A stretch of 24,000 nucleotides of DNA, taken from contig JAIYCG010000006.1 of NCBI GenBank assembly GCA_027488115.1, forward strand, positions 41,194-65,193, in the 5' to 3' direction. The stretch is from Comamonadaceae bacterium. Its GTDB lineage: Bacteria; Pseudomonadota; Gammaproteobacteria; Burkholderiales; Burkholderiaceae_C. The position numbers were made by a program, and so were the translations under genes. The notes under the pieces were generated by a model. It ran no database searches and was not told where the DNA came from. It saw nothing but the letters and a program-made list of their open reading frames with translations. Position 1 is the first letter of the stretch, and the number at the start of each line of letters is the position of its first letter. Shown one piece after another: positions 6,249-23,773 of this stretch.

Positions 6249-6393
6249 ATTGGGGTCAGATCAACATTAATTTTGTCAATCAGAGTGGCTAAAGGCAAAG
6301 GGGGGCTTCCTCATACTGGAGTACCAGAAATCGTTCAGCCCCCCTTTGCCTTTAGCCACTCTGATTAGAAATTAATGTTGATCTGACCCCAAT
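6249..6393. mobile_element. 145-bp hairpin MITE, copy A (TA-flanked, IS630/mariner-like signature, non-autonomous)
   Basis: The 24-nt terminal inverted repeats are ATTGGGGTCAGATCAACATTAATT and AATTAATGTTGATCTGACCCCAAT. TA flanks both ends (6247-48 and 6394-95). A perfect 29-bp inner stem surrounds a 31-nt apical segment. The copy is near-identical to 11019-11163. Confidence 0.85.
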
Positions 6394-11018: not shown

Positions 11019-11163
11019 ATTGGGGTCAGATCAACATTAATTTCCAATCAGAGTGGCTAAAGGCAAAGGGGGGCTTCCTCATACTGGAGTACCAGAAATC
11101 GTTCAGCCCCCCTTTGCCTTTAGCCACTCTGATTGACAAAATTAATGTTGATCTGACCCCAAT
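11019..11163. mobile_element. 145-bp hairpin MITE, copy B
   Basis: It has the same 24-nt TIRs, inner stem and apical segment as copy A. TA flanks sit at 11017-18 and 11164-65. The arms are in the opposite orientation to copy A. Confidence 0.85.
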
Positions 11164-18927: not shown

Positions 18928-19320
18928 ATTGGGGTCAGATCACAATTGTTTTGGCAGCTTGGCAGCCAATTTGACCGGCATATTGAGTTCAATGCCCAGT
19001 GCATGGGCGAGTGCGTTAGCGCCGCTGACAACGCCGTTTTCATAGCCATCCTCGGCATCGCCAATTTTGGCTGACATGTGTGAGTAGCAAGCGCAAGGTA
19101 TGGTCTGAGCCTGCAACATTTTCAAAGCGACTTTGCCTGCGTCGTCCTTACCGCCACCTGCATCGTTAAAGAAAACGCAACTTGGTTTTTGGCTGAGCGC
19201 GATGACAAATTCAGCAGCAGATCGACCGCCATGTGAGCCCGATACGACGACGGCATTGGCCTGTGCATCGCTGATGTGTGCGATCGAGTCTAGTAAAAAC
19301 AATTGTGATATGACCCCAAT
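18928..19320. mobile_element. 393-bp TA-flanked, inverted-repeat-bounded cassette (mobile-insertion-cassette-like), a variant of the MITE family
   Basis: 25-nt inverted repeats ATTGGGGTCAGATCACAATTGTTTT (18928-18952) and its complement (19296-19320) differ at 1 position. TA flanks sit at 18926-27 and 19321-22. The outer 15 nt are identical to the 145-bp MITE termini. The interior is occupied by one ORF. Confidence 0.6.
18940..19302 (-). CDS. Hypothetical 120-aa protein encoded inside the inverted-repeat cassette
   Basis: The ORF has host-like codon usage and a non-repetitive, globular-looking sequence (VVVSGSHGGRSAAEF...FFNDAGGGKDDAGK...IGDAEDGYENGVVSGAN). The only start is a TTG inside the right repeat, and the TGA stop lies inside the left repeat. 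I could not assign a family. Confidence 0.6.
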   Translation of the reverse strand: MFLLDSIAHISDAQANAVVVSGSHGGRSAAEFVIALSQKPSCVFFNDAGGGKDDAGKVALKMLQAQTIPCACYSHMSAKIGDAEDGYENGVVSGANALAHALGIELNMPVKLAAKLPKQL

Positions 19321-19357: not shown

Positions 19358-20161
19358 ATGACCCCTGAGACATTGCTGCATCACCTTGATCACGGCACGC
19401 TTTGGCCGGCAGCTGAGCTCGCAAGTATGCCTGAAGAAGTTGCGAGTGCCTACCAAACAGCCCTGAAAGTTCGAACACTGAGACAGGCAAGAGGCGAAGT
19501 ACCCAAGGGCTTCAAGATTGGTTTTACCAATCGCAGCATTTGGGAGCGCTATCAAGTTTTCGAGCCCATTTGGGGAACGGTATGGAACACGACGCTTAGT
19601 TTTGCCAACGAAGCAAGTGAATGTCATGTCGATATCTCTAATGTGTGCCAACCTCGGTTGGAGCCTGAATTGGTTTTTGGCATGCGTTGTACGCCGCCTG
19701 CCAACTTAACGCTACAAAGCCTGTATGAGTCTATTGATTGGATGGCCAGTGGATTTGAGGTGGTTCAGTCGCATGCAGACAACTGGAAATTCAAAGTGGC
19801 CGATACAGTGACTGACAGTGGCTTGCACGCCAAATTGGTGGTGGGTCAGCAAGTGAAGTTGTCGGACGTTGCCCAAAATGGCAATGAATTGCATACTTTG
19901 TTGTCGGGTATGTCCCTCGAACTTTTGCAAGCAGGTAAAAGTATAGAGAAGGGCGCTGCATCCAATGTTCTAGACAGCCCGCTAATGGCTTTGCATCACT
20001 TTTTGACAGCCCTCAGAAACTGCCCTGGTGCCCCCGATGTTCAAGCCGGCGATGTCATCACCACAGGCACTTGGACTGACGCGTGGCCCTTGGTAAAAGG
20101 CCAGCATTGGGAAAGCCGTTACGACCTACCCCTAACCGGACTCAAGCTGCAAGTCATTTAA
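19358..20161 (+). CDS. 2-keto-4-pentenoate hydratase-like protein (MhpD/HpcG-type, fumarylacetoacetate hydrolase superfamily)
   Basis: The start is trimmed to the ATG at 19358, with GGAG 7 nt upstream. The track start at 19133 is antisense to the 120-aa ORF. Supporting motifs are VRTLRQARGEVPKGFKIGFTN and GDVITTGTWT. The TAA stop is formed at the solo-TIR junction. Confidence 0.8.
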   Translation: MTPETLLHHLDHGTLWPAAELASMPEEVASAYQTALKVRTLRQARGEVPKGFKIGFTNRSIWERYQVFEPIWGTVWNTTLSFANEASECHVDISNVCQPRLEPELVFGMRCTPPANLTLQSLYESIDWMASGFEVVQSHADNWKFKVADTVTDSGLHAKLVVGQQVKLSDVAQNGNELHTLLSGMSLELLQAGKSIEKGAASNVLDSPLMALHHFLTALRNCPGAPDVQAGDVITTGTWTDAWPLVKGQHWESRYDLPLTGLKLQVI

Positions 20162-20184
20162 TTGGGGTCAGATCAACATTAATT
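20161..20184 (+). repeat. Solo MITE terminus (left-type TIR) preceded by TA
   Basis: ATTGGGGTCAGATCAACATTAATT is identical to the TIR of copies A and B, and TA lies at 20159-60. It fills exactly the gap between the convergent hydratase and hicB genes: the hydratase stop overlaps its first base and the hicB stop overlaps its last. Confidence 0.8.
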
Positions 20185-20579
20185 TACTCAACAGTTAAAG
20201 CCAGATGCGCAATGAGACCAGACCTGGTTTCGCCATATTTTTTGGCTTTTGAATCCAAGCGCGCCAATACCCTTTTGGGCAGGGTAATGTTAACTCGCTC
20301 TACTTCGTCAGACATCAATGCCGGATCGACCTCGACCATTGCCCAGATCCAGCCTTTGAACTCTTTGTGCTTTTGCAGGTGAGAAATAGGGCTTGGTTTG
20401 GGGATAACTTGATCCATGTCCAAAGCGGTTTCAATCCACAACTCGATGGCCTCTTTGGTGTTTTCGATGGCTTCGTCAATGCCTTGATCTGAAGCGGAAA
20501 AGCAACCAGGCAGGTCAGGCACGACAACGCCCCAAGTTTGAGTTGCGGTTGCAGGCTCTATGGCAATTGGGAATTTCAT
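20184..20579 (-). CDS. hicB: HicB antitoxin (HicB N-terminal fold plus C-terminal ribbon-helix-helix)
   Basis: 131 aa. MKFPIAIEPATATQTWGVVVPDLPGCFSASDQGIDEAIENTKEAIELW is a canonical HicB N-domain. The C-terminal VNITLPKRVLARLDSKAKKYGETRSGLIAHLAL is RHH/CopG-like. It lies 3 nt downstream of hicA. Confidence 0.9.
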   Translation of the reverse strand: MKFPIAIEPATATQTWGVVVPDLPGCFSASDQGIDEAIENTKEAIELWIETALDMDQVIPKPSPISHLQKHKEFKGWIWAMVEVDPALMSDEVERVNITLPKRVLARLDSKAKKYGETRSGLIAHLALTVE

Positions 20580-20582
20580 AAT

Positions 20583-20771
20583 TTACTGATCCTTTAATCC
20601 AGACTGCTTTAGCAGTTTAGCCAGCAATCCGGTACCTAAATCTTTGCTGCTAAGAGGAACACTGATGTGACCTGCGCGAAGCGGATGTACATAAACATGG
20701 TGTGATCCTTTGATGCCGCGCAGTTGCCAGCCATTGCGCAATAACAGTGCGATGAACTCTTTGCTTTTCAT
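20583..20771 (-). CDS. hicA: HicA mRNA-interferase toxin
   Basis: 62 aa. MKSKEFIALLLRNGWQLRGIKGSHHVYVHP...ISVPLSSKDLGTGLLAKLLKQSGL matches the HicA/YcfA pattern, including the catalytic GSHH. Confidence 0.9.
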   Translation of the reverse strand: MKSKEFIALLLRNGWQLRGIKGSHHVYVHPLRAGHISVPLSSKDLGTGLLAKLLKQSGLKDQ

Positions 20772-20780
20772 TCAAGCAAG

Positions 20781-20797
20781 ATACACACTATACACAC
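20781..20797 (-). promoter_or_regulatory. Possible hicAB promoter/operator: tandem 8-mers overlapping a -10-like box
   Basis: The minus strand reads GTGTGTAT-A-GTGTGTAT 9 nt upstream of the hicA ATG, with TATAGT (20787-20792) as a -10 candidate. The -35 is poor (cTTGTa at 17 nt). This is motif inspection only. Confidence 0.2.
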
Positions 20798-20827
20798 AAA
20801 CGACAATGTACAAGTGCTTGCAGAATA

Positions 20828-20972
20828 ATTGAGGTCAGATCAACATTAATTTCCAATCAAAGGGGAGAAAGCCTAAGGGGGGCTTCCTCATACTGGCGTA
20901 CCAGAAATCGTTCAGCCCCCCTTAGGCTTTCTCCCCTTTGATTGACCAAATTAATGTTGATCTGACCCCAAT
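20828..20972. mobile_element. 145-bp hairpin MITE, copy C (divergent inner stem)
   Basis: It has the same architecture and TA flanks (20826-27 and 20973-74). The left TIR has one G>A change (20832). The apical segment has one A>C change (20897). The inner 29-bp stem differs from A and B at six positions per arm, all compensated. Confidence 0.85.
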
Positions 20973-22192
20973 TATTTAGGTCTGTCCTTCTCGGGATATT
21001 GGTCAAAAACTGCACCCTGTTCAAACAGTGCTTGAATTTCTTCGGTTGAATAACCCAACTCAACAAGTACCTGCTTGGAGTGCTGACCAAGCCAAGGCGC
21101 GGGCATTCGAATGGTACTCAGTGCACCGCTAGATTTAATGGGCAAGCCTATGGTTTTCATGGGGCCAATGATGGGGTGGTCTATGTCGTGAACCATTTTT
21201 CGCGCATGAATGTGCGGGTCGTTCATGATTTGCTCATAGCCAAAAACAGGGCCACCTGGAATGCCTGCCGCATCCATTTTGCCAACCCAATGTGCAGTTG
21301 ACTCTTGCATCAAAATGGCCTCAATGTCTCGTTCTAATGCATCCGCATTTTTAACGCGCAAAGCTTGCGTGATGTAGAGAGGATTAGACGGCCAATCGGG
21401 CTTCTCAACCACTTTTTCGCAAAACACCAGCCATAGTTTTTGAGACCCTGCGCCCACAGTGACATAACCATCTGCACTTCGATAAGCCTGGTAGGGCGCC
21501 GCGCGGCGGTGCCTTGTGCCCGTAGACGTGGGTATTTCACCCGATCCAAAAAACGCGCCAAACTCCCAAGCTGTCCAGGCAAGGCCGGCTTCTAACAAAG
21601 AGGTTTCAAGGTACTGACCTGTGCCAAAACGTAATTTACCAATCAAGGCCCCCAAAATACCAGAAAGTGCCGTCACGCCACTTGCAATGTCGTTCATGGC
21701 AATGCCCACTTTGACAGGGCGTCCACCGGGTTCACCAGTCATCAGCATGATGCCCGACATGCCTTGCGCAATGATGTCAAAGCCGCCCTTTTTGCCATAA
21801 GGCCCCGTCTGACCAAAGCCAGACAAAGAAGCATAAATGACGCTTGGGTTGACAGCCTTAACTGTCTCGTATCCCAAGCCCATGCGCTTCACAACGCCCG
21901 GCCGAAAGTTCTCCAAGATAATGTCTGCTTTAGAAGCCAAGTCCAAGGCGATCTTCAAACCTCCAGGGTCTTTTAAATTGAGCGCAACACTTTGTTTGTT
22001 CCGGTTCAGCACCGCAAAGCAATAAGACTCGCCATTCACCTGAGGCTCAAAACTTCTAGAAGAATCGCCCTTGTTGGCGTTTTCAATTTTGATCACCTCT
22101 GCACCCATGTCACCCAAGACCATGCTGCAGTAAGGCCCCGCCAGCACGTTGGTTAAATCAAGAACACGAATGCCAGACAAGGGGAGGGTCAT
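20972..22192 (-). CDS. Family III CoA-transferase (CaiB/BaiF/formyl-CoA transferase-like)
   Basis: 406 aa. LSGIRVLDLTNVLAGPYCSMVLGDMGAEVIKIE is the canonical family III N-terminus. The TAA stop is formed at the MITE C junction. Confidence 0.9.
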   Translation of the reverse strand: MTLPLSGIRVLDLTNVLAGPYCSMVLGDMGAEVIKIENANKGDSSRSFEPQVNGESYCFAVLNRNKQSVALNLKDPGGLKIALDLASKADIILENFRPGVVKRMGLGYETVKAVNPSVIYASLSGFGQTGPYGKKGGFDIIAQGMSGIMLMTGEPGGRPVKVGIAMNDIASGVTALSGILGALIGKLRFGTGQYLETSLLEAGLAWTAWEFGAFFGSGEIPTSTGTRHRRAAPYQAYRSADGYVTVGAGSQKLWLVFCEKVVEKPDWPSNPLYITQALRVKNADALERDIEAILMQESTAHWVGKMDAAGIPGGPVFGYEQIMNDPHIHARKMVHDIDHPIIGPMKTIGLPIKSSGALSTIRMPAPWLGQHSKQVLVELGYSTEEIQALFEQGAVFDQYPEKDRPK

Positions 22193-22200
22193 GTGTCTGC

Positions 22201-22989
22201 CTATTTGCCTTTAAAAACAGGCTTGCGTTTTGCCATGAAGGCGGTTCTGCCTTCCTTAAAGTCTTCGCTGTTGAAGCACGCGGCCACCACCTTCTCGCAC
22301 AAATCCATATTGCGCTTGGCCTCGTCTTTGACAATCTCGCCCACCAGGGTTTTGATGGAAGCAACAGTCATCGGTGCATTTGAAGCAATCGTTTCTGCAT
22401 ATTGCTGCACATATTGTTCTAGTGCATCAGCCGCAACCATGCGATTGATCAGCCCCATGCTCATGGCTTCTGAAGCAGAAAACTGTCTGGCTGTGAAAAA
22501 TATTTCTTGCGCAAATGAAGGCCCCACCACATCGACCAACTTGCGCACACCCTCATACTCATACCCCAAACCCAACCTGGCTGCGGGCACAGCAAACTTT
22601 GAATTGTCACTGGCAATGCGAATGTCGCAATTCAAAGCCACGCCTACGCCACCGCCGATGCAATAGCCTTGAATCATGGCAATGGTGGGCTTGTTGATAT
22701 TTTTAAGCGCCTGCATGCCCTTGGCAGAGACCGCGTTGTAATGCGTCTCGGCTTCAGCAGAGTTGCGTTGATTTTCAAATTCAGAAATATCGGCGCCCGA
22801 TACAAAGGCCTTGCCCCCAGCACCTTGAACCACGACAACACGAATGTCTGGGTCTGTTGTAAATTCGTGTGCAATGTAGGCCAAGCCTTCCCACATCTCA
22901 AGCGATACCGCGTTGTGCCGCGCAGGGTTGTTAAACGTGAGCCACCCAATGTGCTTGTCTTTTCGAGCAAGCATTTTCTCTGTTGTCAT
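22201..22989 (-). CDS. Enoyl-CoA hydratase/isomerase (crotonase) family protein
   Basis: The start is trimmed to the ATG at 22989 (MTTEKMLARKDKHIGWLTFNNPARHNAVS). VVVQGAGGKAFVSGADISEF and QGYCIGGGVGVALNCDIRIA are crotonase oxyanion-hole motifs. Confidence 0.9.
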   Translation of the reverse strand: MTTEKMLARKDKHIGWLTFNNPARHNAVSLEMWEGLAYIAHEFTTDPDIRVVVVQGAGGKAFVSGADISEFENQRNSAEAETHYNAVSAKGMQALKNINKPTIAMIQGYCIGGGVGVALNCDIRIASDNSKFAVPAARLGLGYEYEGVRKLVDVVGPSFAQEIFFTARQFSASEAMSMGLINRMVAADALEQYVQQYAETIASNAPMTVASIKTLVGEIVKDEAKRNMDLCEKVVAACFNSEDFKEGRTAFMAKRKPVFKGK

Positions 22990-23002
22990 ACGGCTATTAC
23001 AT

Positions 23003-23773
23003 TTAACCGACAGTGCCAGCATCAGCCATCAGGCAACTGCCAGTGATGAATGAAGCCTCAGACGACGCTAACCAAAGTATGGGGTATGCAATTTCGGCAG
23101 GGTCGGCCCAGCGTTTGAGCAAATTTTGCTCATAGCGTTGGTGGTCAATTTCAATGCCAGATTTTCTGGCCTCTGCAGCACGCTTGATGTGAAAGGGTGT
23201 GAGAGTGGCGCCAGGGCAAATTGCATTCACACGAACTTGGTGCTGCGCTTCCTCATAGGCCAAGGTTTTGGTCAATGAAACAATGCCCGCCTTGGTCACA
23301 TCGTATTGCCCCATGCCCACCCTAGGGTGAACAGCATGCGTTGAAGACACATTCACAATGTTGCCCGTTGAACTTTGGCGCAAAAGAGGCAATGCCTCTC
23401 TGGCCATGTACACATAACTGAGCAAATTCACAGCAATGATTTGATTCCAAACTTCAGCCGTTGAGTCTGCCAGTGGCTCATAAGAGCGCATGCCAGCGTT
23501 GTTCACCAAGATGTCTAGTTGGCCCCAATGTGAAAAAACACGAGAAACAACTTCTGCAGCTGAAGCTTCAATGGCAAGATTGACAGGGATGCAAATGACC
23601 TCAGCACCAGGAATGGCATCTTGAACAGATTTGGAAACTGCATCCAAAGGTGAATCGGGCAAGTCGACCAGTGCCACCTTGGCGCCATGTTCGCAAAAAA
23701 GTTTGGCAGTGGCCGCGCCTATTCCGCCTGCCCCCCCCGTCACAATGGCTACTTTGTTGGCAAGTCTTTTCAT
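23003..23773 (-). CDS. SDR-family oxidoreductase
   Basis: 256 aa. Contains VAIVTGGAGGIGAA (the TGxxxGxG motif), NNAG and YDVTKAG (YxxxK). Confidence 0.9.
   Translation of the reverse strand: MKRLANKVAIVTGGAGGIGAATAKLFCEHGAKVALVDLPDSPLDAVSKSVQDAIPGAEVICIPVNLAIEASAAEVVSRVFSHWGQLDILVNNAGMRSYEPLADSTAEVWNQIIAVNLLSYVYMAREALPLLRQSSTGNIVNVSSTHAVHPRVGMGQYDVTKAGIVSLTKTLAYEEAQHQVRVNAICPGATLTPFHIKRAAEARKSGIEIDHQRYEQNLLKRWADPAEIAYPILWLASSEASFITGSCLMADAGTVG

What the first reader, a model, noticed from the sequence alone, without database searches (positions are those of the whole stretch)
20159..20974. hicAB toxin-antitoxin module bracketed by element termini (solo TIR plus full MITE)
A solo left-type TIR (20161-20184, preceded by TA) lies at the end of hicB, overlapping its stop codon by one base. 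A full MITE (20828-20972) lies 56 bp upstream of hicA. The solo TIR and the far TIR of copy C form an inverted pair with TA on both outer sides. This defines an 812-bp unit that contains only hicB, hicA, their putative promoter and the nested MITE. The solo TIR also forms a direct repeat with the near TIR of copy C. Removing 20161-20974 in silico preserves a TAA stop for the CoA-transferase gene but extends the hydratase ORF by about 23 codons, so the ancestral state is ambiguous. This could be a TA module hitch-hiking as cargo of a TIR-bounded cassette, or a MITE copy disrupted by acquisition of hicAB.
Basis: partly seen in the sequence, partly recalled or inferred. Interest (0 to 1): 0.6.

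Follow-up and report, generated by a model that had tools for sequence, protein, structure and literature searches.

The report
hicAB module framed by REP/REPIN repeats
The "transposon ends" around this toxin-antitoxin gene pair are REP/REPIN hairpin repeats that go with a single-copy RAYT transposase-like gene of the freshwater genus Limnohabitans, and the gene pair has kept the same repeat frame in at least eight species while its neighbouring genes changed.

Summary
An exact 25-nt terminus lies at 20161-20185, against the hicB stop codon. A complete 145-bp palindromic element lies at 20828-20972, 56 bp upstream of hicA. hicA and hicB are intact.

The interpretation needs re-filing. These are not IS630-type, TA-duplicating MITE ends.
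- The genome has one Y1/HUH transposase gene (a RAYT), flanked by the same 25-mer as inward-facing repeats.
- All 12 RAYT loci fetched from the genus carry the motif beside the gene, on both sides in ten.
- The inner half of the repeat co-varies with the RAYT clade. Genomes in the >=87%-identity RAYT clade hold 20-53 copies of this repeat type; all others hold none.
- No IS630-type (DDE_3) transposase was found.

So the "MITE" is a REPIN and the "solo TIR" a REP singlet.

The cassette idea is partly right. The unit REP-hicB-hicA-REPIN recurs in eight Limnohabitans species with at least five different neighbour combinations. Homology stops at the outer REP ends. Synteny breakpoints, an identity step (94% to 79-84%) and a chimeric REPIN all fall on these repeats. 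There is one copy per genome, and no empty site or circle was seen. I favour recombination at REPs in a REP-punctuated flexible region over active transposition.

Earlier notes of this scan report hicAB beside REP-type repeats in other genomes; I did not test those.

The parts
20161..20185 (+). Its outer end supplies the last base of the hydratase TAA stop. Its inner end overlaps the hicB stop codon.
   Evidence: Exact 25-mer. The same junction (...CATTAATTTACTCAAC) is present in G036, G058 and G082; G003 has a 45-bp REP doublet here.
20184..20579 (-). hicB antitoxin gene (131 aa; HicB-like domain plus C-terminal ribbon-helix-helix)
   Evidence: PF15919 3e-48 and PF07878 2e-8. 83-91% aa identity in seven other Limnohabitans species.
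20583..20771 (-). hicA toxin gene (62 aa; the GSHH motif is present)
   Evidence: PF07927 8e-17. It is the only HicA match in the genome.
20772..20827 (-). Conserved 56-bp spacer between the REPIN and hicA. It probably holds the hicAB promoter/operator (TTGTAC...TATAGT and a tandem GTGTGTAT repeat on the - strand); this is inferred only.
   Evidence: Alignable across all species that keep this side. The consensus scan found no promoter on the - strand.
20828..20972 (.). It consists of REP 20828-20852, stem 20854-20884, loop 20885-20913, stem 20914-20944 and REP 20948-20972. Its last base is part of the CoA-transferase stop codon.
   Evidence: Folds as one hairpin, -63 kcal/mol, z = -17. A REP-derived element lies at the same position upstream of hicA in G036, G058, G082, G060 and G122 (full REPIN) and in LR37 (a REP pair about 20 bp apart).
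19358..20161 (+). 2-oxopent-4-enoate-hydratase-like gene. The true start is probably MTPETLL at 19358. It lies between a variant REP and the REP singlet, both with their outer ends facing the gene.
   Evidence: Weak NCBIfam matches to dmpE and dmpH. The 267-aa orthologue in G122 starts MTPQTLL. It also lies next to hicB in G060, LR37 and G122, but there in the opposite orientation.
18928..19320 (.). Second REP-framed unit: variant REPs (ATTGGGGTCAGATCACAATTGTTTT type) at 18928-18952 (+) and 19296-19320 (-) around a conserved 120-aa ORF (18940-19302, -).
   Evidence: ORF homologues of 77-85% identity lie next to a variant REP in G003 and G060, and a 77% homologue lies in G006.
20972..22192 (-). 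Family III CoA-transferase gene; the neighbour on the hicA side
   Evidence: PF02515 6e-123. 94% nt identity to G082, against 79-84% for hicAB.
6249..6393 (.). REPIN copy A
11019..11163 (.). REPIN copy B

Best explanation
The 25-nt termini are REP sequences and the 145-bp element is a REPIN (a REP doublet that folds into one long hairpin). Both belong to the single-copy RAYT (REP-associated tyrosine transposase) of one Limnohabitans clade.

hicAB is an intact type II toxin-antitoxin module. It has carried a REP at the hicB stop and a REPIN about 56 bp upstream of hicA since before at least eight species, and two hicAB allele groups, diverged.

The module sits in a flexible region where most genes are separated by REPs, REP doublets or REPINs. 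Gene blocks there are gained, lost, inverted and exchanged with their breakpoints at these repeats.

Shown here:
- the identity of the repeats and their link to the RAYT gene;
- the conserved frame around hicAB;
- the different neighbours in different species;
- breakpoints that fall on REPs.

Inferred: the re-assortment is by recombination at the repeats (homologous recombination, or helped by hairpin or RAYT nicking), not by cut-and-paste transposition with TA duplication. The REPIN probably also acts as a hairpin barrier between the CoA-transferase transcript and the hicAB promoter. The addictive nature of the toxin-antitoxin pair may help the block persist.
For: RAYT link:
- One Y1_Tnp gene in the genome. 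NCBIfam REP_Tyr_transpos scores 74.8 bits against a cut-off of 80.
- Its only PDB match is E. coli TnpA-REP (4ER8), with the HUH motif aligned. I read the aligned SYIDLNP Tyr as the catalytic Tyr from my own residue count.
- The gene is flanked by inward-facing copies of the 25-mer. The same motif lies beside all 12 RAYT loci fetched from the genus; ten have it on both sides. The two exceptions are L045, which ends just after the gene, and L050, where only a looser match was found on one side.
- REP type co-varies with RAYT clade. There are 20-53 copies of the AACATTAATT type only in genomes whose RAYT is >=87% identical (plus G003, where no RAYT was found in an 81%-complete assembly). There are none in the other 23 genomes. 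The CCCAATTAA type is found in genomes with the ~60% clade.
- No DDE_3/IS630 transposase was found.

Conserved frame and different contexts:
- Neighbours are CoA-transferase|hydratase (G000), CoA-transferase|second hicB-like gene (G082), 182-aa ORF (hydrolase-like by eye, not family-searched)|279-aa ORF (G036, G058), 105-aa ORF|hydratase in the other orientation (G060, LR37) and TctC-like|hydratase (G122).

Breakpoints on repeats:
- G036 vs G058: 5 of the 8 ends of the three collinear blocks that lie inside the compared loci fall within 11 nt of a REP.
- G000 vs G082: identity steps from 94-95% (SDR, enoyl-CoA hydratase and CoA-transferase genes) to 88% (REPIN) to 79-84% (hicAB).
- G082 hicAB is closer to G036/G058 (90-91%). 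By eye, the two arms of the G082 REPIN are not complementary.

REPs cluster in toxin-antitoxin-rich islands.
Against: - The REP singlet of this clade does not fold on its own (0 kcal/mol), so it is not a textbook palindromic REP. Only the doublet and the sister-clade REP are hairpins.
- The NCBIfam RAYT score is just under its cut-off.
- Recombination at repeats and transposition of a repeat-bounded unit predict the same boundaries, so the sequence data do not separate them.
- Several of the genomes are MAGs (G082: 84% complete, 4% contamination), so some mosaicism could be a binning artefact.
- No clean empty site was found.
Confidence: 0.66

Rival explanations
1. The unit is a non-autonomous, RAYT-mobilised cargo element: a REPtron in which hicAB takes the place of the RAYT gene. 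RAYT, acting in trans on the inward-facing REPs at 20161 and 20972, would excise and reinsert the 812-bp single strand, as IS200/IS605 transposases do with their hairpin ends.
For: - The geometry is the same as at the RAYT gene itself: inward-facing REPs about 0.8 kb apart.
- The unit has identical boundaries in at least three unrelated contexts.
- A second inward-facing REP pair frames the 120-aa ORF.
- Earlier notes of this scan report hicAB next to REP-type repeats in unrelated phyla (not tested here).
Against: - There is one copy per genome.
- RAYT genes with the same frame are themselves single-copy and described as immobile (PMC5581495).
- The frame is not constant. On the hicB side it is a singlet, a doublet, a variant REP 30 nt further out, or absent.
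- Every neighbouring gene block is also REP-bounded and rearranged, which points to a regional process rather than to one element.
- No joint with adequate support was seen in the contigs of four metagenomes (weak evidence, because the contigs break at the repeats).
Confidence: 0.17
2. There is no unit at all. hicAB is an old resident gene pair, and REP/REPINs have landed independently on either side because they prefer AT-rich gene ends. The framing would be a coincidence of high local repeat density.
For: - 19 of 64 REP outer ends in the genome abut the end of a long open frame.
- REPs are dense in this contig (12 core matches).
- G122 lacks the hicB-side REP.
Against: - The REPIN sits at the same nucleotide position upstream of hicA in both hicAB allele groups, which differ by 22-25% in nt sequence.
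- The REP/hicB-stop junction is identical in four species.
- The neighbours beyond the repeats differ while the inside is conserved. Independent landings do not explain this.
Confidence: 0.1
3. One reading: an IS630/mariner-type MITE family with TA target duplication. hicAB would be cargo between a solo TIR and a MITE, mobilised by a DDE transposase.
For: TA lies at both outer sides here and at most copies: 48 of 64 ends are preceded by TA. The repeats are terminal and inverted.
Against: - No DDE_3 transposase in the genome.
- The only gene bounded by these repeats is a Y1 transposase.
- 10 of 64 ends have CA, in inverted rather than direct symmetry.
- The TTAA is part of the hairpin stem in the sister repeat type.
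Confidence: 0.03

Closest known systems
REP/REPIN-RAYT systems (Nunvar 2010; Bertels & Rainey 2011, PMC3116915; Bertels et al. 2017, PMC5581495; E. coli TnpA-REP 'REPtron', PDB 4ER8)
   Same: - A single-copy Y1/HUH transposase-like gene framed by inverted REPs.
- Tens of extragenic copies, mostly as doublets that form a hairpin.
- The repeat type tracks the RAYT lineage within a genus.
- Copies persist at orthologous sites across species.
   Different: - The doublet is long (143-148 bp). It has a roughly 22-nt stem segment that differs between copies yet is perfectly complementary within each copy, and an apical loop found in both orientations.
- The 25-nt REP of this clade is not itself a stable palindrome.
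- Here REPs frame whole genes, including a toxin-antitoxin pair, that re-assort between species.
pdif modules of Acinetobacter plasmids and integron gene cassettes (including toxin-antitoxin cassettes of Vibrio superintegrons). This comparison rests on my own knowledge and was not tested here.
   Same: Small gene units, often toxin-antitoxin pairs, are delimited by short repeated sites and found in different contexts. The repeats punctuate a variable array.
   Different: - Those use tyrosine recombinases (XerC/D, IntI) at defined crossover sites.
- Here the only candidate enzyme is a Y1 HUH protein, no site-specific event is shown, and the arrays are not next to an integrase.
Mobile insertion cassettes and MITE-framed cargo (MICs)
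   Same: Inverted element ends frame a passenger gene that has no transposase.
   Different: MIC ends belong to DDE insertion sequences and make target duplications. Neither was found here.
HicAB type II toxin-antitoxin systems
   Same: The toxin gene comes first, separated from the antitoxin gene by 3 nt. HicA is 62 aa with GSHH. HicB has a C-terminal RHH domain.
   Different: Nothing unusual in the proteins. Homologues of 71-74% identity in Polynucleobacter and others have no such repeats nearby.

Membership tests
REP/REPIN-RAYT system | A RAYT gene: a Y1 (HUH) transposase-like protein with the HUH motif and the catalytic Tyr | tested here: met
   PF01797 1.5e-11. NF047646 scores 74.8 bits, just under its cut-off of 80. 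The only PDB hit is TnpA-REP 4ER8, with HFH aligned to HMH and SYIDLNP aligned to DYIYINP; the catalytic role of that Tyr is my own reading of the numbering.
REP/REPIN-RAYT system | RAYT present as a single copy | tested here: met
   One Y1_Tnp match in the 2.95-Mb assembly. One match in most congeners.
REP/REPIN-RAYT system | RAYT gene flanked by the repeat in inverted orientation | tested here: met
   L001 1220-1244 (+) and 2051-2075 (-). The motif lies beside all 12 RAYT loci fetched from the genus, on both sides in ten.
REP/REPIN-RAYT system | The repeat is abundant, and its type co-occurs with the RAYT lineage | tested here: met
   53 copies in G000 and 20-48 in the seven other genomes of the >=87% RAYT clade. 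None in 23 other genomes, where another inner half is found.
REP/REPIN-RAYT system | A single REP is a short imperfect palindrome | tested here: not met
   The singlet folds at 0 kcal/mol and the RAYT-flanking copy at -2.5 (z = -0.6). The sister-clade REP folds at -8.7 (z = -3.6).
REP/REPIN-RAYT system | REP doublets form a hairpin (REPIN) | tested here: met
   The 149-nt stretch 20826-20974 (the 145-bp element plus both flanking TAs) folds at -63 kcal/mol, z = -17. 19 copies of 142-148 bp were aligned.
REP/REPIN-RAYT system | RAYT binds, nicks and disperses the repeats | not testable with these tools
   Needs biochemistry or genetics.
IS630/Tc1-mariner-type MITE | TA target-site duplication | tested here: not met
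   10 of 64 ends have CA. Flanks are inverted, not direct. TTAA is part of the stem in the sister REP.
IS630/Tc1-mariner-type MITE | A parent DDE transposase with the same ends | tested here: not met
   No PF13358 match in the genome. Only this one DDE family was searched.
HicAB type II toxin-antitoxin | Adjacent HicA-domain and HicB-domain genes, both intact | tested here: met
   Both reading frames are open in six species.
HicAB type II toxin-antitoxin | Toxicity of HicA and neutralisation by HicB | not testable with these tools
   Needs expression assays.
Mobile gene cassette (any kind) | The same unit with the same boundaries in different genomic contexts | tested here: met
   At least five neighbour combinations in eight species. 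Homology ends at the outer REP ends.
Mobile gene cassette (any kind) | Evidence of movement: several copies, an empty site, circles or junction reads | tested here: not met
   One copy per genome. Depth equals that of the flanks. All joints in the metagenome contigs have short sides inside repeats. No empty site was found.

The most novel reading that the evidence does not exclude
REP sequences and their RAYT may act as a gene-shuffling system. Genes framed by inward-facing REPs (hicAB, the 120-aa ORF, and others in these islands) would be cargo-carrying relatives of the REPtron, excised or exchanged through RAYT-made nicks at the hairpins. That would be functionally an integron-like cassette system built on a Y1 HUH enzyme. 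It could also explain why this scan keeps meeting hicAB next to REP-type repeats in unrelated phyla.
Probability: 0.15. Interest if true: 0.8.

Novelty: new variant of a known kind. Interest (0 to 1): 0.42.

Why it matters
What RAYTs and REPINs do for their hosts is still an open question (PMC5581495). This case comes from an abundant freshwater genus. Here REPs delimit whole gene blocks, including an addiction module, and synteny breaks, an identity step and a chimeric REPIN all fall on the repeats. That makes one concrete role testable: REPs as the seams along which flexible genomic islands are cut and re-joined.

There is also a practical point. It corrects the filing of this repeat family in the scan's own notes on this genome, from IS630-type MITE to REPIN/RAYT.

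Tried and rejected
- **Clean empty site.** I looked for one at the CoA-transferase/hydratase junction. The CoA-transferase orthologues in G010, G013 and G007 have other neighbours and no repeat. The hydratase orthologues lie elsewhere. No comparable empty site exists in the genomes searched.
- **Excision or deletion variants in public runs.** The stretch is present at 99-100% identity in several freshwater metagenomes. Only assembler contigs are kept, and they break at every REP. All joints have sides under 33 nt inside repeats, so they are uninformative.
- **G082 as a close relative.** It is 94-95% identical only over the block of three genes ending with the CoA-transferase, and 77-79% elsewhere. 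The comparison therefore shows a recombination boundary, not an ancestral state.
- **Simple REP-to-REP inversion of the hydratase gene** (G000 vs G060/LR37). The inner halves of the flanking REPs do not match what one inversion would leave, so I make no claim.
- **Consensus promoter scan.** It found nothing on the hicAB strand.
- **Toxin-antitoxin/REP proximity in G000.** By my own tally, 4 of about 10 modules lie within 150 bp of a REP. Three of the four are in one island, so I offer no statistic.
Full report
**1. Observation**

The sequence is as described.
- The 25-mer ATTGGGGTCAGATCAACATTAATTT lies at 20161-20185 (+), right after TA.
- A 145-bp element at 20828-20972 carries the same 25-mer at both ends in inverted orientation (one mismatch on the left).
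- There are seven matches in the window against none expected.
- Between the two lie hicB (20184-20579, -) and hicA (20583-20771, -). Both have strong Pfam matches and are separated by 3 nt.
- Three stop codons overlap repeat ends: those of the hydratase, hicB and the CoA-transferase.
- Removing 20161-20974 keeps the CoA-transferase stop and lengthens the hydratase frame by 20 codons.

**2. What the repeats are**

The genome is 2.95 Mb in 49 contigs with 51% G+C. Record titles place the genus as Limnohabitans.

It holds 19 copies of 142-148 bp. My tally of the list adds about 14 single termini and a few 45-80-bp doublets.

The key locus is on another contig, C34. The pair of termini at 25219 (+) and 26074 (-) frames a 233-aa ORF.
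- The ORF is a Y1 transposase: PF01797 at 1.5e-11, and NCBIfam 'REP-associated tyrosine transposase' at 74.8 bits against a cut-off of 80.
- Its only match among solved structures is E. coli TnpA-REP (4ER8). The HUH motif aligns, and by my own residue count so does the catalytic Tyr.
- It is the only Y1 gene in the genome.
- No IS630-type DDE_3 gene was found.

The pattern holds across the genus.
- 16 of 18 congeners searched have an orthologue.
- All 12 RAYT loci fetched carry the motif beside the gene. Ten have it on both sides. L045 ends just after the gene, and L050 gave only a looser match on one side.
- The outer half of the repeat (AATTGGGGTCAGATC) is shared by the whole genus. The inner half differs with the RAYT clade.
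- Genomes whose RAYT is >=87% identical to ours hold 20-53 copies of the AACATTAATT type. G003 also does; no RAYT was found in that 81%-complete assembly.
- The 11 other congeners and all 12 genomes outside the genus hold none.
- Genomes with the ~60% RAYT clade hold 2-10 copies of a CCCAATTAA type.

Single copy, framing by the repeat, abundance and co-variation are the defining traits of REP/REPIN-RAYT systems (PMC5581495; PMC3116915). The '145-bp MITE' is therefore a REPIN and the 'solo TIR' a REP singlet.

One textbook feature is not met.
- The 25-nt REP of this clade does not fold alone (0 kcal/mol).
- The sister-clade REP is a clean 12-bp-stem hairpin (-8.7 kcal/mol, z = -3.6).
- The doublet folds at -63 kcal/mol, z = -17.

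TA is not a target duplication.
- Flanks of full copies are mirror images of each other (AAAYA|...|TRTTT).
- Four full copies and 10 of 64 ends have CA instead of TA.
- In the sister type the TTAA pairs within the stem.

**3. The hicAB unit in other species**

A DNA search of 127 genomes of the genus found the module in 10, counting G000. The protein scan added one more MAG, called LR37 here.

| Genome | hicB side | hicA side | Note |
|---|---|---|---|
| G000, G036 (Limnohabitans sp. Rim11), G058 | REP singlet joined to the hicB stop in the same way | full REPIN | |
| G082 | same junction, outer half of the REP degenerate | full REPIN, arms not complementary by eye | |
| G003 | 45-bp REP doublet | contig ends inside hicB | G000 equals this minus exactly one 21-nt arm |
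| G060, LR37 | variant REP about 30 nt further out | full REPIN (G060); REP pair about 20 bp apart (LR37) | |
| G122 | no REP | full REPIN | hicA deleted |

In every genome that keeps the hicA side, a REP-derived element lies at the same position upstream of hicA, after a conserved roughly 56-bp spacer. This holds in both hicAB allele groups, which differ by 22-25% at the nucleotide level. The linkage is therefore old.

The genes beyond the repeats differ:
- CoA-transferase | hydratase (G000);
- CoA-transferase | a second hicB-like gene (G082);
- a 182-aa ORF (hydrolase-like by eye, not family-searched) | a 279-aa ORF (G036, G058);
- a 105-aa ORF | the hydratase in the other orientation (G060, LR37);
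- a TctC-like gene | hydratase (G122).

G003 shows only the hicB side, where a 169-aa ORF follows.

Homology ends within 3-4 nt of the outer REP ends. hicB homologues of 71-74% identity in Polynucleobacter, Achromobacter and others have no such repeats within 4 kb.

**4. The region as a whole**

The neighbours themselves are REP-bounded blocks that recur in shuffled order between species. They include the 279/287-aa ORF, the 209-aa ORF, the 169-aa ORF, the hydratase and the 120-aa ORF.
- Between G036 and G058 there are three collinear blocks. Five of their eight ends that lie inside the compared loci fall within 11 nt of a REP. The differences between blocks are whole REP-bounded genes.
- Between G000 and G082, identity is 94-95% over the SDR, enoyl-CoA hydratase and CoA-transferase genes. 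It is 88% in the REPIN and 79-84% in hicA and hicB.
- G082's hicAB is closer to that of G036/G058 (90-91%). Elsewhere G082 is only 77-79% identical to G000.
- By eye, the two arms of the G082 REPIN are not complementary; each resembles the stem of a different species' copy.

Together these place an exchange boundary inside the REPIN.

REPs also cluster in another island (C36, 3-15 kb) with brnTA, vapBC and hepT/mnt modules.

**5. Mechanism**

Two processes would give units that end at REPs:
- recombination between repeat copies, whether homologous, or promoted by hairpins or RAYT nicks;
- RAYT-driven movement of a REP-framed single strand, by analogy with IS200/IS605.

I favour recombination (about 0.66) over a cargo element (about 0.17), for four reasons.
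- The whole region, not just hicAB, is cut at REPs.
- The frame around hicAB varies in form: singlet, doublet, variant or none.
- There is one copy per genome.
- RAYT genes with the same frame are regarded as immobile.

Contigs of four freshwater metagenomes that hold this strain show the 706-bp hicAB piece at the same depth as its flanks. No well-supported joint was seen, but the contigs break at each repeat, so this is weak evidence.

Two steps are inference only:
- the REPIN acting as a barrier between the CoA-transferase transcript and a hicAB promoter in the conserved spacer;
- the toxin-antitoxin pair helping the block persist.

**6. Comparison and novelty**

The repeat family is a new member of the REPIN/RAYT kind. 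It has some unusual traits: its length, hypervariable but self-complementary stems, a flip-flop loop, and a singlet that is not palindromic.

A toxin-antitoxin module that keeps a REP/REPIN frame through several genomic contexts is, as far as I could find, not described. I rate it a new variant of a known kind, of moderate interest.

Earlier notes of this scan filed the family as IS630-type MITEs; my evidence contradicts that. Other notes describe hicAB next to REP-type repeats in unrelated genomes. I did not test those.

Noticed in passing
window 20854-20884 / 20914-20944; G036 L033 8538-8680; G058 L034 2023-2163; G082 L035 7471-7610: The roughly 22-nt inner stem of the REPIN differs strongly between copies but is perfectly self-complementary within each copy. 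At the orthologous site upstream of hicA, G036 and G058 have quite different stems although their hicAB genes are 94-98% identical. G082 has two arms that do not match. This suggests whole-arm replacement or hairpin-templated correction rather than slow compensatory change.
   Followed up: partly
window 6249-6393, 11019-11163, 20828-20972 and 16 other copies in G000: The 29-nt apical loop occurs in both orientations relative to the asymmetric arms (CCAATCA side vs GGTCAATCA side). A few copies have the same arm type on both sides.
   Followed up: partly
G000 genome-wide (64 REP outer ends): 19 of 64 REP outer ends abut the end of an open frame of at least 100 codons. In 10 of these the TAA stop is the TA plus the first A of the REP. 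In these ten the stop codon overlaps the REP's first base.
   Followed up: partly
G000:C34:25219-26074 (L001 1220-2075): The RAYT locus has an extra degenerate REP copy (ATTGGGGACAGATCAAATTTGAG) between the gene and the right-hand REP. This copy is conserved at six of the seven loci of the >=87% RAYT clade, G000 included; the seventh (L045) ends just after the gene.
   Followed up: no
window 20972-23773 vs G082 L035 4669-7467: A block of three genes (SDR, enoyl-CoA hydratase, CoA-transferase) is 94-95% identical between G000 and G082. Other compared loci of the two genomes are only 77-79% identical. This is either recent exchange of the block, with one edge at the REPIN, or a MAG binning artefact.
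   Followed up: partly
window 18940-19302 (-): The 120-aa ORF of unknown function has no Pfam or NCBIfam match. It is conserved at 77-85% in G003, G006 and G060. Its TTG start lies inside a variant REP. In G003 and G006 it lies close to a hicB gene.
   Followed up: partly
G122 L037 2608-3256; G006 L018 5101-5403: The module has decayed in some lineages. G122 has lost hicA but keeps hicB and the promoter spacer. G006 has a 100-aa hicB without the RHH tail; no hicA was seen beside it.
   Followed up: no
G000:C36:3276-6021 (L002): A REP-rich island holds brnT/brnA, an HTH_37 gene, vapB/vapC and hepT/mnt back to back. A REPIN lies at one end, and a truncated REPIN lies between vapC and hepT.
   Followed up: partly
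G000:C36:8704-8748; G003 L017 1404-1452, 2121-2167, 5404-5446: Minimal REP doublets of 45-50 bp (two REPs back to back, without stem and loop) coexist with the 145-bp form. One search also shows many REP pairs about 54 bp apart in G001. The two forms may interconvert at the same site.
   Followed up: no
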